64,000 bases of DNA, from NCBI GenBank assembly GCA_965113315.1, contig OZ220363.1. One strand, written 5' to 3'. Position 1 is the first letter of the stretch; each line of letters starts with the position of its first letter. A program made the position numbers. Shown here in pieces: positions 3,001 to 12,000 of the stretch. The DNA comes from Podarcis vaucheri (Eukaryota).

Positions 3001-6000
3001 CTCCAGTTGTAACTTCTGATGTAAACCTTTGTTTCTGGGGCCAGCCCCTCCCAGATTGCCGCCTTCCTTGTTGTAGAGGAAGTGTTGTGAACGGAGACCA
3101 TCGAATGGAAAGGGGCAAAGTCAAGCTGGGGCTACCTGGAAGTTACCGAATGCAGCACACCCTAAGCATTTTTAAAATTCTATGTGATGTACTTGTTGAA
3201 CGTGTTGATTTAAGGTCCAGAGCTTTCCTTGGCCCCTGCCTCCTTTTAAAAGGAATTCCTTTTTGGAGTGGTTCACTCATGAGTTTGCTTCAGATCGCAC
3301 CATACCTCACTGATCTCTGGCATGCCAGTCTAGGGAGACGATTAGAGACAGTGGGAGGCGTCTCTTCACACCACCATATTTAGCTGTGTTATGTAATCGT
3401 AAGTAGGGTTTCTGGAGCCACTCTAGTCACCAGGCAGCCCTTTGAGACCAGTTGCAGCAAAAACCTGCGTGTTTGGAGCATTATGGGACAAAAGCACCTG
3501 CAGAGTTCTTGATTAAGCTCTCATCCTTGAGTTGCAACCCTACGGGTGTTCATTTTCAGCTTTCATTGCTCCATCCTAGCCTGAGCACCCAGTTACTTAA
3601 AATCAAGGTAACACGTTACACCCTGGAATATGCAGTCTCCAGCAACTGGATCTCAGTAGTGAGGCCAAGCATCTGTTGTGCTCACGAACACTTAATGTGA
3701 TTGTTCAGCTGCATGGTGAAGCCTCCCTTGTAGAAGGACCCTGTTTTGACTCACAGAACAATGTTGTGGCCTAAGGCGGAGGGGGTGGTGTCTGGCAAAG
3801 GATGTTCTTGTGTGATGTGGCACCTCCTTTTGTACTGTTGATCACAGAGGTGCTCAGCTCTAAATGTGGTTTTTTAAAAAATAAAACGGGGAAAGTTGTG
3901 TAAGCAATGGAGTGACAACTTAAACTGTAAAATATATTAAAAATTGATGATTGGAAAAGTTGCTTTTTACATAATGGACATTTTTAGTTTGTTTTGAAAT
4001 AATGGAAGTAAGAAAAGAAAGAAATGAAACAACAGAAACATAGCCTTGGTTCCTTTCAACTCACCCACCCCTGTTCTTCGTGATTTGATTTGTTTGTCTT
4101 TTTCTGATAGGTTGGAAATTGTGTAATAAACTTGATGATATTGTCAATCTTTTATACTGCATTGTATGGCTTCTTTTCATTTTGTAACTATTTTGAATGC
4201 TGGGTGAGCTGTTTTCTAGAATCTCCACTAAATATGAGCGGGGGACAGGGGGGAGACCTTGATATGGAAAAGAGGATGGATAGATAAGACAGGTGCCATA
4301 TTTTGGCTGGGTAGTAGCCCTTGTAAAACCATGGTTTTATGTATTGCTAAACTAGTTCCAAACCCACTTTATGTACACATATTAAAATGATTTTTTAAAA
4401 AAGCTTCTATCTCTCAGTCATCTCCATTTAAAGGGGAGTGTCTGGTAGCAAGCCAAGGAAAGATTTGAGACCCTTGAGAATTTCTGCCAGTGTGAAATCA
4501 GTACACTGAATGAAGATTTGATGCTCAGCATCATTTTAAGGAGCTCCTTTAAAAAATATTTGCTCTGGAAAACATGAACAGAAATCACAGGTTTCATAAA
4601 AAGGCATAAGCATTATGCTGAACAGAGATGGGGAAATGAAGCCATGATGGAAACAGATGAAACTCAAACACTTTGAAAGGGGATTGTGCCTTTCACGTGA
4701 AATTGAATATTACAGGCAAGGATGCAAGGAAATATAATAGCATATAAGGGCTTTCTATGGCAGGAAAAGGTTCAGTTACAAGAGTACAGTATTGTCCTGA
4801 TTGCTAGTGGTATTCAGTGAAATGTTTCTGGGGATCATAGGCTTGCACAGATGGCTTGTGTTTCACCTTCCTGAAGGTTTGTCATAAAAGGGCATTTGCC
4901 TGTGACTGGCGGATGAGGTGGTAGTACTTTCAGAATGCAGCTTGAGTGGTGAACAGTCTGTGGGAGGGGCTTAATGCTGAGTGGGTGGGTTTACCTGGTT
5001 GCTAGGTGATGATTGTGATCTAAGGGACCAGGATTAATCTCAAGTGAGCCCAGATAACTGGTCTGATGAATGGGTACCATTCAAGTCTCTTGTCATTCTC
5101 ACCATGACATACTCACTAGAATTTGGCCTTGTTAATGCGGCCAACCGGTACCTGACTGCTGAACCTTTCCGTTTCCAGGTGGCAGCCACAGGCAAGCAAC
5201 TGAAGCCTCGCCAGTTGTGGGTACTGCAGTTTGTGAGCCCACAGGGAGCTGGGGCAGCTGGCCCAGGAGAAGGGGCTGGCCAAAAGCTTCACCTGATCAG
5301 TGCACTGAAACGCTACTTGGCGGCTGACGCAAATGGAAAAGTCACCTGTGACCAGGACAAACCAGGGCCTCAGACCTTCTTTCTCTTGCATCAGTATCCA
5401 GATGGCAAGGTGCTGTCTCTCACGCAGGCACAAGCATCCTATCTCTCAAGTGTAGCTTATGTTCGATATTATCGGGCTGGAATTCTGGACAAAGAGGGTT
5501 GGGTGGGTGGGTGAGACGGAGGGCAGAAGGTAGGAAAACAATGCTTAAAGTTGCCTCAAAAGGGCCTCAAAACTATTCCGCTATTACCCAAATGTAGGCT
5601 TCTTGTTTTGCTTACAAATGTTTTTTACAATTAAGAGGCAGAAATGAGGGCAGGGTTGAGCTCGATTTGCAGACTAGTTTGCTGTGGTGAGAAGCAGGGT
5701 TTTTCTAGATTCTTACGGGTAAGTCCAGGCAGCAGATTCCTGCACTCCAGTGCTGTAAAGTGCATCAGGAAGAGTGCAAAATGTTCCTGGACTCCCCCCC
5801 CCCCCATGGTCTCCTTGGGAAGCCAGTAACATGAGCCAAAGCTTTTTGCCCCTGTCGGCCAAACAGTATGATAGTCAGCCACTATGGGCTGAAGGGGAGA
5901 GAATGTATCTGACTAGCTTATTTGAGTCCCTGTGCTAAGAGTTGCCGGGTGTATCCTTCAAGGTGCCCTAGCCACTTCCCATCCACAACTGGAAACAACT

Positions 6001-9000: not shown

Positions 9001-12000
9001 TCCTTTGGAAGAAACGAAGTACAGCAAGCCAGCAACTTACGGCACATTTAACTTGTGCACAATTAATCCAGATCTGAAAGAGGATTTGAATTTAGGCTTG
9101 CACGTGACGTTTTGTGCTCTTAAACCAGCCTGCCTCCAAAGATAAAGATAGGAAGGTCCAAATGATCCTAGGTCAGTTGACACACAAACAATGCCCCCAT
9201 TCTCTGCACAATGTTTTCCTCTTTCGATCCATGAAGCACTGATTTCAGCCTGCAGGAGTGGGCAATGGCATATGTAGGAATGCTGACCTCGGGTGTTTCT
9301 TCCCTGCCCCCTGCAGGTGCTGATCTCTATGCCAATGCTATGGCTGTCGGCAACACCGAGATCTTCCAGGTGCTGTTTGATGACACCACAAAGAAGGTCT
9401 GCTTCCGTAGCCACAGCGGCGCGTATATGTCCTTGGTGAGTGTGCCTGCCACGCATTACGAAGAACAGCAGCAATCAGGCAGGACCAGCTATTTCAAATT
9501 GTTTCCTAACTATGGAGAAGGACTGCAGTCCGTAGGTGGTAGAGCACATGCTTTGCATGCAGAAAGCCCCAAGCTTTTTTCAGCCACAGCCACTCAGTCC
9601 AGTCTTGTCCCCAACCTCCTTCTGACTATATTCTACAATGGGCAACACTGAGACTAAGGAGGGAGGAAGCTGACAGGCAGCCCCACCCCACGACTGGTTG
9701 TAAGTGAGAATGGGGGGACTGATCAAGGGCAGAGTGAGGATGGTGGGGCAGGGCCCCTTTTGCCCAAGTGGATCAGCTTCCACTGGATACACCTGTGCCC
9801 AGATTGTGGTGCACTAACTTAATCTGGAATTCTTTTAAATGTGAGCAAGGAGGTGGGTGAGCGGCATCCTTGACGCTTGGCTGCGATCATTCACAAAAAT
9901 TGTGGCCTGGTTCAAAAAACAAAACGTCGTAAGCTTGAAACGATGTAGTAGAGGCTTTGCCACCTCAAGTGTTCACCAAGTCTCCCCGGATGAAGAAGAT
10001 ATATCTGCGCCATGTGTGTATTAATACAGAAAGGCAGGCTGCAAATCAAGAGGATAATAATATAGCAAGCAGAGAACTGATAAAAGGAGGCTTGTTAAAT
10101 AGCAGAAGATAGCTCTTGGTCCTGGACTTGTTTGTTAATGTTAGTAAGGGCTGTCTCAGGCCTTTTCCAAAATATTTTTGTCAACTTTAGTGCGGGTGGG
10201 GGGAGTTACTCTATTCTACAAAGCAAAACAGGGCATTATACACAATCCTCCTTGTGTAAAAGTGGAAAATTGTTTTTTGTACACTGAGGATGGAGAACCT
10301 GTGGCTCTCGAGTTGTTGTACTCAAATTCCTATTGTCCTTGATCATTGGCTGGCAGTTATTACTCCAACATATTGAAGGCCTCAGGTTTCTCATCCCTGC
10401 CACAGATGAAATATGTAAGTGTGCAGTAGGAATGCACATCTTCCTGAACAACCTCTTAAGAGAAAGCTAACTGCTTAAGCCTGGAGCGCTGGAGACATCT
10501 TTTTCAGGTCTGCTATTCACTTACCTGGGAGTAAAACTTGTTGAACTAAATGAAACTTATAAGTAGAGTTGAAGGTGGTCTTCTGGCTGCATTGTTCATG
10601 GTGTGCACATACACTATCTGCTATGAACCCAGTCAGAAATTTTGCAGATTTTTGTTGTGCTTCAAAACCTATACTGCACATCTAACATACCATTTAGAAA
10701 TCTTATAGTTTGGCTTCAGTCTGGGCTATGGTTCACATAGTGCAACTTGAAGTGTGAAGTCAACAATAAAGTGGCTTTGAATAAAGCCAAGGTCCACCAC
10801 CCTCCCTAGCTTGCTGATGCTAGAAACCTTCCCCTTTTGGAGGTAACTGCTGCTGGACTAACCTCCCTGGTATTGAGAAGCTCATGCATTGCTGTACTCT
10901 TGTGTTGCGTCACCTACCACAATGGAACTCTCAGTCTTGATGCAGCACCAAATACCTTCCACTGAAAATATATCAACATGGATCTCAGAACGTAGCTGAT
11001 AAAGGGACTGCTACAGAAGGTTTCTATCAGTCAAAGTAACCCCAAAACACAAAAAGCACTTTCCAACGAATGCATCCTGTCTTTTGCAGGGTCCTAATGA
11101 CTGTATTAACAGCAACACCAAACAGGACAGGAATGTCTGGTTCGACATCCAGTACCAAGACCAAAAGGTGTGTCTCCGCATAGCAGACAAGCAAGTGTCC
11201 ATGCGGCCCAATGGACAGCTCCTGGCAATTCCCAAAGCTGCAGGTACAAGTTGGTAGAGAGCTTCTCTTACAAGCACCAGGGCATCAGTGTGGACAGGTG
11301 AACACAGCTAGGGTGGGAAGAGAGACTGCACACTGCCAGCTGCAAATTAGCTTTAGGTAGTTCTAGGGGAAAGGACTGGAAGCGACAGCCTTGCACTAAC
11401 TCCCTAGATAGCTCTCTAGAGGAATAATGTGGGGAATGTCTTTGCACAGAAACCAAGCTGTCCCTGGATATAAAATTGGAACATGGGGAGCCAACCTTAA
11501 GCCCATCCTGTGAAATGGCTTTTTAGACACCTCAAGGGTTTCTTGTTGGAAACCAGCAACCAAAACTTTCATAATCTTGCTCTTGCAAGATGGAATGAGT
11601 TCTGTTTACACTCCCTTCCTTACACTTTGGAGTAGCTAACATCACTACAAATACAGCCTACATGAAAGAGAAAAAAACACCCTAAGACTCACTAAAACAC
11701 TGCCCCTCTGTGCATATAATCCTGGCCCCCAGAACTGCATACCAAGTAGGTTGACATTGCTTCTGTAATATGATCTGGGAAGCAGTCAGAGAATGAGTTC
11801 CAGTTTGGGGGGAACCACCACCAGAAACAGATGTGCAGTTGTTGTCCATAGTGGTTACTTGAATGAACTTTGGGGCAAATGCTACTGACAGTAGAAATCA
11901 GGATAAAACCCAAGGGAAGAACAGTATTTGAAGTCCAAGCCATTAAAAGCTTTCTGTGCCATAAGCAGCACCTTGAATCAAGTAAGAAAGACTAGAGGGA

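What the first reader, a model, noticed from the sequence alone, without database searches (positions are those of the whole stretch)
5409..11090. Intron pattern differs from FSCN1/FSCN2, arguing against a retrocopy or recent duplicate
Seen in sequence: introns after DGK (phase 0), DFR-G (phase 1), RP-G (1), YMSL (0), AA-G (1) and QV-G (1). Recalled: FSCN1/2 have 5 coding exons, with one long first exon ending at RQ-G and the second intron further downstream. Here that first exon is split by two extra introns and the fourth intron appears shifted, while three positions appear shared. Inference: vertebrate intron gain is rare, so this pattern suggests a deep, possibly pre-vertebrate, duplication.
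Basis: partly seen in the sequence, partly recalled or inferred. Interest (0 to 1): 0.72.

Follow-up and report, generated by a model that had tools for sequence, protein, structure and literature searches.

The report
Fourth vertebrate fascin gene in lizard
The window holds an intact lizard copy of a little-noticed fourth fascin (actin-bundling) gene that sharks, frogs, turtles and lizards keep but that was not seen in mammals, and its six introns are an old, conserved feature of that gene rather than a sign of anything odd.

Summary
The window is from a lacertid lizard, not human. Exon by exon it matches NCBI 'fascin-like' of Lacerta agilis.

It is none of FSCN1, FSCN2 or FSCN3.
- Twelve reptile species, including Podarcis muralis, carry both this gene and a separate 'fascin-3'.
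- In a tree of 39 named proteins it forms its own clade, 100/100, reaching from chimaera, sharks and rays to squamates. That clade is sister to FSCN3 (96/95), though FSCN3 branching first is not rejected.
- Its neighbours are TMEM216, TMEM138, a cytochrome b561 gene, a Dak1 gene (TKFC) and DDB1. In human that block runs straight on to CPSF7 with no fascin.

Annotated isoforms show that four of the six junctions are kept in cartilaginous or basal bony fishes. Introns 3, 5 and 6 match junctions inferred for FSCN3. The two 'extra' introns do not.

'Pre-vertebrate' is neither shown nor needed. FSCN1/2 intron positions could not be checked directly. The gene is already machine-annotated, so interest is modest.

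The parts
5104..5409 (+). Coding exon 1 (ATG to ..DGK, 102 codons, ends in phase 0)
   Evidence: coordinates, donor AAG|gtgctg. Pfam Fascin 39.3 bits; aligns to human fascin-1 residues 11-100; 102/102 identical to P0003 and P0001.
6173..6422 (+). Coding exon 2 (250 nt, phase 0 to 1, ends DFR-G)
   Evidence: Pfam Fascin 23.6 bits; aligns to fascin-1 residues 102-181, E 3e-22; 83/83 identical to the Podarcis muralis model P0001.
7055..7102 (+). Alternative 48-nt cassette exon inside intron 2 (phase 1 to 1, 16 codons, LESNGERRQFSPYIP plus the split codon)
   Evidence: ag|..|gtgaat; 14/15 identical to residues 187-201 of Lacerta agilis P0003; five squamate isoforms carry an insert of 16-24 residues at this junction. 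In four of them it is alike in sequence; the fifth (Euleptes) differs.
7953..8234 (+). Coding exon 3 (282 nt, phase 1 to 1, ends RP-G)
   Evidence: Pfam Fascin 37.2 bits; 93/93 identical to P0003; the ray Narcine isoform X5 lacks exactly this exon (residues 186-279 of P0009).
9317..9435 (+). Coding exon 4 (119 nt, phase 1 to 0, ends YMSL)
   Evidence: aligns to fascin-1 residues 280-317; 39/39 identical to P0003.
11090..11243 (+). Coding exon 5 (154 nt, phase 0 to 1, ends AA-G)
   Evidence: aligns to fascin-1 residues 329-366; 51/51 identical to P0003.
12194..12367 (+). Coding exon 6 (174 nt, phase 1 to 1, ends QV-G)
   Evidence: 57/57 identical to P0003. No Pfam hit on its own.
12955..13154 (+). 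Coding exon 7 (200 nt including the TGA stop at 13152-13154)
   Evidence: Pfam Fascin 27.5 bits; 62/65 identical to P0003.
13181..13186 (+). AATAAA 27 nt after the stop; possible polyadenylation signal (weak)
   Evidence: The hexamer occurs 104 times in the window, so this rests on position only; its use is not shown.

Best explanation
The region is the intact lacertid-lizard orthologue of a fourth vertebrate fascin gene. Databases call it only 'fascin-like' or 'fascin'; here it is called F4.

What it most likely does (inferred): it encodes a 494-residue protein of four beta-trefoils that bundles actin filaments as fascin-1 does. The basic residues whose mutants were crystallised in fascin-1 are kept or conservatively replaced. 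The serine-39 position, which was crystallised as a phosphomimetic S39D mutant, is a glutamine here. Regulation at that serine, as I recall it for fascin-1 (protein kinase C), therefore probably does not apply in squamates.

Gene structure: 7 coding exons plus one alternative 48-nt cassette. This layout is the old, conserved layout of F4. At least four of the six junctions are already present in cartilaginous or basal bony fishes.

Origin: F4 arose with FSCN1, FSCN2 and FSCN3 from one ancestral fascin gene before jawed vertebrates diverged. The most likely route is the two early vertebrate genome duplications, with F4 as the sister of testis fascin FSCN3 (inferred). It sits between TMEM216 and, presumably, CPSF7. 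No member was seen in mammals, birds or teleosts.

Introns: 3, 5 and 6 are the family-wide ones. Introns 1, 2 and 4 are specific to F4, either gained early in its lineage or lost elsewhere; this is undecided.
For: Shown here:
- Gene model and phases.
- Fascin homology of the single exons.
- Near-identity and collinearity with NCBI and UniRef squamate models of 494 and 510 residues that have the same junctions.
- Spread of F4: 43 of the 102 proteins returned for the Anolis orthologue are F4-type. They come from 20 squamate, 1 crocodilian, 8 turtle, 2 frog, 10 cartilaginous-fish, 1 sturgeon and 1 coelacanth rows. Identity then drops to 35% at named FSCN1 and FSCN2.
- Separate FSCN3: a search with marsupial fascin-3 returned 82 FSCN3-type proteins, 25 of them from reptiles and none of them F4. 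Twelve species appear in both lists, Podarcis muralis among them.
- Tree of 39 named rows: F4 100/100, FSCN3 100/100, FSCN1 98/99, FSCN2 100/100, F3+F4 96/95, F1+F2 92/91.
- AU tests reject FSCN3 nested with amniote F4 (p 0.0008) or with tetrapod F4 (p 0.001).
- Synteny: Transmemb_17 (the family that holds TMEM216), TMEM138, cytochrome b561, Dak1 and DDB1 exons lie downstream, in the order of the human chromosome-11 block. A CNV gene list gives that block as DDB1, TKFC, CYB561A3, TMEM138, TMEM216, CPSF7 with no fascin (passage of PMC5485587). FSCN1, 2 and 3 are placed at 7p22, 17q25 and 7q31 (passage of PMC7983713).
- Junction conservation within F4: Narcine X5 lacks exactly residues 186-279. 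Gaps in Callorhinchus models end at 186 and 319 or start at 320. The Latimeria model stops at 427. The Acipenser gap starts at 429.
- Fold: the AlphaFold model of the Anolis orthologue has pLDDT 78 and pTM 0.75. It matches human fascin-1 over its whole length at TM 0.77-0.86.
- Residues: K22>R, K41=K, K43>R, R149-K150-R151=RKR, K358>R, S39>Q (alignments; the mutant names come from the PDB titles).
Against: - The F3-F4 sister grouping rests on a very long FSCN3 stem (1.62 changes per column). A tree with FSCN3 branching first is not rejected (p 0.22).
- The AU groups were named after I had seen the tree.
- The only outgroups are three protostome fascins. No amphioxus, tunicate, sea urchin or lamprey row was available, so 'vertebrate-specific' is inferred, not shown.
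- Absence from mammals, birds and teleosts rests on word-indexed searches and on my own knowledge that the human genome has three fascin genes.
- FSCN3 was seen only in amniotes. If the F3/F4 split is as old as the tree says, FSCN3 must be lost or unrecognised in fishes and amphibians.
- Intron positions of FSCN1, 2 and 3 were not read from DNA. They come from isoform and model breakpoints and from recall.
- Actin bundling, expression and use of the cassette exon are untested.
- The structure model is of the Anolis protein, not of the window's own protein, and residues 46-57 and 393-416 are of low confidence.
Confidence: 0.8

Rival explanations
1. The gene is the lizard orthologue of FSCN3 (testis fascin), which I recall as also having seven exons.
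For: F4 is the sister clade of FSCN3 in the tree (96/95). nr names the Callorhinchus F4 member 'fascin-3'. Three junctions are shared.
Against: Podarcis muralis and eleven other reptile species have a separate 'fascin-3' as well as F4. The two clades are each supported at 100/100. Nesting FSCN3 within amniote or tetrapod F4 is rejected. The window's neighbours are TMEM216 to DDB1. Four rodent FSCN3 models are instead fused to an Arf domain, which fits the ARF5 neighbour I recall. The two 5' introns do not match the inferred FSCN3 junctions.
Confidence: 0.02
2. The gene is a recent or lineage-specific duplicate, or a retrocopy, of FSCN1 or FSCN2.
For: Its single exons find human fascin-1 as the only solved relative.
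Against: It has six introns and an alternative exon. The Anolis orthologue is about 35% identical to FSCN1 and FSCN2 of lizard and turtle. Orthologues exist in cartilaginous fishes. It forms a separate clade.
Confidence: 0.01
3. The split that produced F4 (or F3+F4) is older than vertebrates. Invertebrates would then have lost this type.
For: In the unrooted tree the protostome fascins attach at the node between (F1,F2) and (F3,F4). The topology alone therefore allows a split before that node. F4 has introns that FSCN1/2 are said to lack.
Against: It needs loss of the F3/F4 type in every invertebrate lineage. The symmetric two-plus-two topology and four separate loci are what two rounds of genome duplication predict (inference). 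Protostome fascins are as similar to F4 (32-33%) as FSCN1/2 are (33-35%).
Confidence: 0.1
4. FSCN3 is the earliest-branching vertebrate fascin, and F4 groups with FSCN1 and FSCN2. The F3-F4 pairing would be a long-branch effect.
For: The AU test does not reject F1+F2+F4 as one clade (log-likelihood 5.95 lower, p 0.22). The FSCN3 stem is 1.62 long.
Against: The free tree pairs F3 with F4 at 96/95 under a site-heterogeneous model.
Confidence: 0.2

Closest known systems
FSCN1 (fascin-1), the solved human actin-bundling protein
   Same: Same length class (494 against 493 residues). The same four-beta-trefoil fold in the model of the Anolis orthologue, TM 0.77-0.86. Exons align in order along it. 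The basic residues K41 and R149-K150-R151 are kept; K22, K43 and K358 are replaced by R.
   Different: About 34-35% identity. Different locus: a review places FSCN1 at 7p22. FSCN1 is said to have 5 exons (review passage), against 7 coding exons plus a cassette here. S39 is Q here. Amniote F4 has an 11-residue Gly/Ala-rich insert at residues 46-56.
FSCN3 (testis fascin)
   Same: Sister clade in the tree (96/95). Junctions inferred at the same codon and phase for window introns 3 and 5, and within 1-2 codons for intron 6. I recall seven exons for it.
   Different: It is a separate gene in the same reptile species. It evolves much faster (stem 1.62 against 0.56). It is linked to an Arf gene (fused models). 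Inferred FSCN3 junctions lie at residue 33/34, at 104/105 (or 87/88) and at 187/188 of the Podarcis protein. The window's introns 1 and 2 correspond to about 89/90 and 172. It was seen only in amniotes, whereas F4 reaches cartilaginous fishes.
FSCN2 (retinal and hair-cell fascin; fascin-2a/2b of fishes)
   Same: Fascin family. The five longer fish isoforms (four named fascin-2b, one unnamed 'Fascin') carry their insert at exactly the alignment column of window intron 5, so that junction is shared (5 of 5 long isoforms).
   Different: 33-35% identity. Its own clade with FSCN1 (92/91). Placed at 17q25 in human.
NCBI/UniRef 'fascin-like' or 'fascin isoform X2' of squamates (e.g. Lacerta agilis P0003, Anolis carolinensis XP_016851051.1 = P0009)
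   Same: The same gene: 497 of 505 residues identical to Lacerta agilis, summed over the eight exon peptides. Identical junctions and the same cassette exon.
   Different: Nothing of substance. The UniRef model of Podarcis muralis itself (P0001, 444 residues) is mis-spliced at exons 3, 5 and 7.

Membership tests
Fascin family (Pfam PF06268; four beta-trefoil actin bundlers) | Fascin-domain sequence signature | tested here: met
   4 of 7 exon peptides exceed the curated cut-off of 23.1 bits (39.3, 23.6, 37.2, 27.5). E4 is below it (15.4). E5 and E6 have no hit on their own.
Fascin family (Pfam PF06268; four beta-trefoil actin bundlers) | Four tandem beta-trefoils collinear with fascin-1 over about 490 residues | tested here: met
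   Exons E1, E2, E4 and E5 align in order to fascin-1 residues 11-100, 102-181, 280-317 and 329-366. The AlphaFold model of the Anolis orthologue matches whole fascin-1 chains at TM 0.77-0.86. The window's own spliced protein was not assembled or folded.
Fascin family (Pfam PF06268; four beta-trefoil actin bundlers) | Basic residues studied by mutation in fascin-1 (K41, R149/K150/R151, K358; names from PDB titles) | tested here: met
   K41=K, RKR=RKR, K358>R, K22>R, K43>R in the alignments. S39 is Q, so that site is not kept.
Fascin family (Pfam PF06268; four beta-trefoil actin bundlers) | Bundles actin filaments | not testable with these tools
   Needs protein biochemistry.
FSCN3 orthologue group | Falls in the FSCN3 clade, and is the only such gene in its genome | tested here: not met
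   Podarcis muralis has its own fascin-3 (P0297); the two clades are separate, each at 100/100; nesting is rejected.
FSCN3 orthologue group | FSCN3-type neighbourhood (next to ARF5; recalled, and supported by four Arf-fused rodent models) | tested here: not met
   The window's neighbours are TMEM216-type, TMEM138, cytochrome b561, Dak1 and DDB1.
FSCN1 / FSCN2 orthologue groups | Falls in the FSCN1 or FSCN2 clade | tested here: not met
   About 35% identity.
FSCN1 / FSCN2 orthologue groups | Five-exon gene with one long first coding exon | tested here: not met
   The window gene has 7 coding exons. For the family side I saw only a review's '5 exons' for FSCN1, plus recall.
Processed retrocopy | No introns | tested here: not met
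   Six GT-AG introns and a cassette exon.
F4, the 'fascin-like' orthologue group of non-mammalian jawed vertebrates | Clade membership and near-identity to annotated members, with the same junctions | tested here: met
   (exon by exon). The named proxy Lacerta agilis P0003 sits in the clade at 100/100. Junctions are kept in rays, chimaera, sturgeon and coelacanth.

The most novel reading that the evidence does not exclude
Jawed vertebrates began with four fascin genes, not the three that reviews state. The fourth (F4) is an ohnologue paired with testis fascin FSCN3. It has kept its own 7-exon structure and its place beside TMEM216 for more than 400 million years, and was lost independently in mammals, birds and teleosts. 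Each paralogue then carries its own private introns in the part that is one long exon in FSCN1/2. That would be a rare case of several early-vertebrate intron gains, or differential losses, inside one small gene family.
Probability: 0.45. Interest if true: 0.5.

Novelty: new member of a known kind. Interest (0 to 1): 0.35.

Why it matters
Reviews say vertebrates have three fascins (passages). I found no paper using 'fascin-4', 'FSCN4' or 'fascin 4' (0 occurrences, which searched 8.1 million PubMed Central papers and 0.36 million preprints).

A conserved fourth paralogue changes how the family's history is told.
- It gives FSCN3, an odd fast-evolving testis gene, a slowly evolving sister for comparison.
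- It offers a fascin that naturally lacks the serine-39 site.
- For genome annotation, it shows that 'fascin-like' in reptiles, amphibians and cartilaginous fishes is one orthologue group that deserves a name.
- The UniRef model for Podarcis muralis (P0001) is mis-spliced.

The intron pattern on its own is ordinary: it is simply the structure of that gene.

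Tried and rejected
One representative was named through a homology search instead.
- Tubb et al. 2002 on FSCN3 and the 2011 J Pathol fascin review are not held. The FSCN3 exon count is therefore recalled, not read.
- Paper searches with 'fascin' as a word start mostly matched 'fascinating' and gave nothing useful. One search found 0 papers. Searches gave only general statements.
- The ESM Atlas search did not discriminate: the 'Fascin' and 'fascin-3' clusters all scored 0.96-0.97.
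- Pelodiscus Ensembl-type FSCN3 models (gap at 70-88) were first read as marking an intron. I dropped this because the junction cannot be a splice of the canonical exons.
- FSCN3 breakpoints at 87/88 (2 models) and at 104/105 (2 models) disagree. I favour 104/105 because an NCBI isoform then skips one clean 83-codon exon. This is not settled.
- Whether FSCN3 has an intron at the window's intron-4 position is undecided. The hints come from three low-quality models only.
- AATAAA after the stop: the motif is too common to count as evidence.
- Unnamed short ORF-like hits covering about 55% of the query could have shown the long first exon of FSCN1/2. I left them unused because they are unnamed and might be human.
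- The joined, spliced protein of the window was never assembled, searched or folded. Every search with window sequence was exon by exon, and full-length work used public named orthologues.
- No contig that I take for human was met.
- Supplements of papers were not consulted.
No genomic DNA of any other fascin locus was examined.

Full report
WHAT IS THERE

The + strand between 5104 and 13154 carries a fascin gene of seven coding exons:
- E1 5104-5409
- E2 6173-6422
- E3 7953-8234
- E4 9317-9435
- E5 11090-11243
- E6 12194-12367
- E7 12955-13154

All six introns are GT..AG. The exons add up to 1485 nt, 494 codons plus TGA.

Taken one at a time, four of the seven exon peptides pass Pfam's Fascin threshold. 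E1, E2, E4 and E5 align in order to human fascin-1 residues 11-100, 102-181, 280-317 and 329-366.

The joined protein of the window was never assembled, searched or folded. All full-length analyses used public, named orthologues.

WHOSE GENE IT IS

E2 is 83/83 identical to a UniRef model of Podarcis muralis and 81/83 to NCBI 'fascin-like' of Lacerta agilis. All exon peptides lie one after another along the Lacerta protein: 102/102, 81/83, 93/93, 39/39, 51/51, 57/57 and 62/65 residues. The window is therefore from a lacertid lizard. I do not take it for human, and I met no contig that I take for human.

The 494-residue squamate models (Anolis, Varanus, Hemicordylus, Crotalus) have exactly my junctions.

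The Lacerta protein is 16 residues longer at the E2/E3 junction. The window holds the matching 48-nt cassette exon at 7055-7102, with ag|..|gt and phase 1 on both sides. Five squamate isoforms carry an insert there. In four of them (Lacerta, Eublepharis, Python, Erythrolamprus) it is alike in sequence; the fifth (Euleptes) differs.

IT IS NONE OF THE THREE KNOWN FASCINS

A search with the Anolis orthologue returned 102 proteins. The first 43 rows are of this type, at 38-91% identity:

| Group | Rows |
|---|---|
| Squamates | 20 |
| Crocodilian | 1 |
| Turtles | 8 |
| Frogs | 2 |
| Cartilaginous fishes | 10 |
| Sturgeon | 1 |
| Coelacanth | 1 |

Identity then falls to 35% at named FSCN1 and FSCN2. 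No mammal, bird or teleost row is of this type.

A profile of 13 members found 1067 fascin-like representatives, all unnamed. The tool that would have named them was switched off. I left aside the seven representatives with the length of a human fascin. One 500-residue representative with an FSCN3-like end, used as a query, turned out to be NCBI fascin-3 of the marsupial Macrotis lagotis. It returned 82 FSCN3-type proteins, 25 of them from reptiles and none of the window's type.

Twelve species appear in both lists: Podarcis muralis, Eublepharis, Alligator, Pelodiscus, Liasis, Python, Varanus, Hemicordylus, Naja, Laticauda, Sphaerodactylus and Chelonoidis. So the window gene, here called F4, is a fourth paralogue and not FSCN3.

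TREE

A tree of 39 named proteins (IQ-TREE, LG+C20) gave these supports:

| Clade | Rows | Support |
|---|---|---|
| F4 | 13 | 100/100 |
| FSCN3 | 11 | 100/100 |
| FSCN1 | 6 | 98/99 |
| FSCN2 | 6 | 100/100 |
| FSCN3 + F4 | 24 | 96/95 |
| FSCN1 + FSCN2 | 12 | 92/91 |

Three protostome fascins served as the outgroup.

AU tests:
- FSCN3 nested with amniote F4 is rejected (p 0.0008).
- FSCN3 nested with tetrapod F4 is rejected (p 0.001).
- FSCN3 branching first is not rejected (p 0.22).

Cautions:
- The FSCN3 stem is very long (1.62).
- I named the tested groups after seeing the tree.
- An outgroup-rooted tree cannot itself show that the first split is younger than the split from invertebrates.

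LOCUS

Downstream of the gene lie the following:

| Exons or ORF pieces | Strand | Window position |
|---|---|---|
| Transmemb_17 (TMEM216-type) | - | 15.3-16.7 kb |
| TMEM138 | - | 23.6-23.9 kb |
| Cytochrome b561 | + | 31.7-33.3 kb (pieces with Pfam hits) |
| Dak1 | - | 52.4-52.7 kb |
| DDB1 | + | 57.8-59.8 kb |

An open frame at about 56.3 kb that I recognise from memory as the DDB1 start suggests the gene begins there.

A human chromosome-11 gene list reads VWCE, DDB1, TKFC, CYB561A3, TMEM138, TMEM216, CPSF7 (one passage of PMC5485587). That is the same order, with no fascin after TMEM216. A review places FSCN1, FSCN2 and FSCN3 at 7p22, 17q25 and 7q31 (one passage of PMC7983713). Four rodent FSCN3 models are fused to an Arf domain, which fits the ARF5 neighbour that I recall.

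INTRONS COMPARED

No genomic DNA of other fascin genes could be reached, so I used breakpoints of annotated isoforms and models as indirect markers.

Within F4 (38 rows):
- The ray Narcine isoform X5 lacks exactly residues 186-279, which is the window's E3. Isoform X3 lacks residues from 281 on.
- Gaps in Callorhinchus models end at 186 and 319, or start at 320.
- The Latimeria model stops at 427, and the Acipenser gap starts at 429.
- Junctions 2, 3, 4 and 6 are thus old. There is no evidence either way for junction 1.

FSCN3 (48 named rows chosen out of the 82; numbering of Podarcis FSCN3):
- Nine variant rows diverge or start exactly before residue 34.
- One NCBI isoform skips 105-187, and another model lacks 105-265.
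- Two models lack 88-187 and 88-265.
- Two python isoforms skip 266-358.
- Two rows skip 359/360-415/416, and three more begin a gap at 359 or 360.

Read with the split codons, FSCN3 has phase-1 introns in the same codons as window introns 3 and 5. Its last intron lies within 1-2 codons of window intron 6, in a stretch with a one-residue indel.

The window's introns 1 and 2 correspond to FSCN3 residues of about 89/90 and 172. That is 15-17 codons from FSCN3's 104/105 and 187/188. If 87/88 is the real junction, intron 1 is within two codons of it.

FSCN2: the five longer fish isoforms (four named fascin-2b, one unnamed 'Fascin') all carry their insert at the column of window intron 5.

For FSCN1/2 I could otherwise read only '5 exons' for FSCN1 (passages of PMC8616296) and a conflicting 'nine exons' for FSCN2 (passages of PMC9426071).

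Whether F4's private introns (1, 2 and the shifted 4) were gained or are ancestral cannot be told here.

FUNCTION (INFERRED)

The AlphaFold model of the Anolis orthologue has pLDDT 78.3 and pTM 0.75, with low confidence at residues 46-57 and 393-416. It superposes on whole human fascin-1 chains at TM 0.77-0.86; the best match is the F-actin-bound form.

Residues named in the titles of fascin-1 mutant structures are kept or conservatively changed in the window's exons: K41, R149-K150-R151, K358>R, and also K22>R and K43>R. S39 is Q in squamates and varies across the clade.

I therefore expect an actin-bundling protein without the serine-39 switch. Tissue and role are unknown.

NOVELTY

The gene is already machine-annotated ('fascin-like'), so the sequence is not new. 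Reviews state three vertebrate fascins. No paper in the searchable library uses 'fascin-4', 'FSCN4' or 'fascin 4'; its 45 hits all come from 'fascin-like', and the 20 listed concern unrelated fascin-like domains or topics. Papers outside that library, and supplements, were not seen.

VERDICT

The intron pattern is simply the conserved structure of a fourth, unnamed fascin paralogue.

Noticed in passing
window 7055-7102 (+): A 48-nt alternative cassette exon lies inside intron 2 of the fascin gene. A similar insert is present in Lacerta, Eublepharis, Python and Erythrolamprus isoforms; Euleptes has an unrelated insert at the same site. In the model it falls in a hairpin loop of the second beta-trefoil.
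   Followed up: partly
window 5236-5268 (+), residues 46-56 of the protein: An 11-residue Gly/Ala-rich insert (GAGAAGPGEGA) is present in squamate, alligator and turtle F4. It is absent from frog, shark, sturgeon and coelacanth F4, and is of low confidence in the structure model.
   Followed up: partly
window about 15.3-26 kb (-): TMEM138 and TMEM216-type exons lie head to tail on the same strand, as in human. I recall a 2012 report that this adjacency arose at the amphibian-to-reptile transition. The fascin gene ends about 2 kb from the 3' end of TMEM216, tail to tail.
   Followed up: no
window about 17.5-18.4 kb, 25.7-26.3 kb and 55.5-56.6 kb: GC-rich stretches with long spurious open frames on both strands lie at the presumed 5' ends of TMEM216, of TMEM138/cytochrome b561, and of TKFC/DDB1. 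They look like CpG-island promoters, the last two bidirectional.
   Followed up: no
public protein P0001 (UniRef A0A670HS48, Podarcis muralis): The public model of this very gene is mis-spliced. It has 444 residues, lacks E5, and reads wrong sequence at the start of E3 and the end of E7.
   Followed up: yes
public proteins P0287, P0288, P0291, P0211 (rodent 'fascin-3'): These FSCN3 models are fused to an Arf GTPase domain. They are probably read-through models with the neighbouring gene.
   Followed up: no
public proteins P0039, P0041 (Narcine bancroftii F4 isoforms): Both isoforms use a junction at residue 343/344 that has no counterpart in the lizard gene. It may be an extra intron or an alternative acceptor in rays.
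   Followed up: no
window 1-5000: No convincing coding exons were seen upstream of the fascin start. By the human order, CPSF7 would be expected on this side, but it was not recognised.
   Followed up: no
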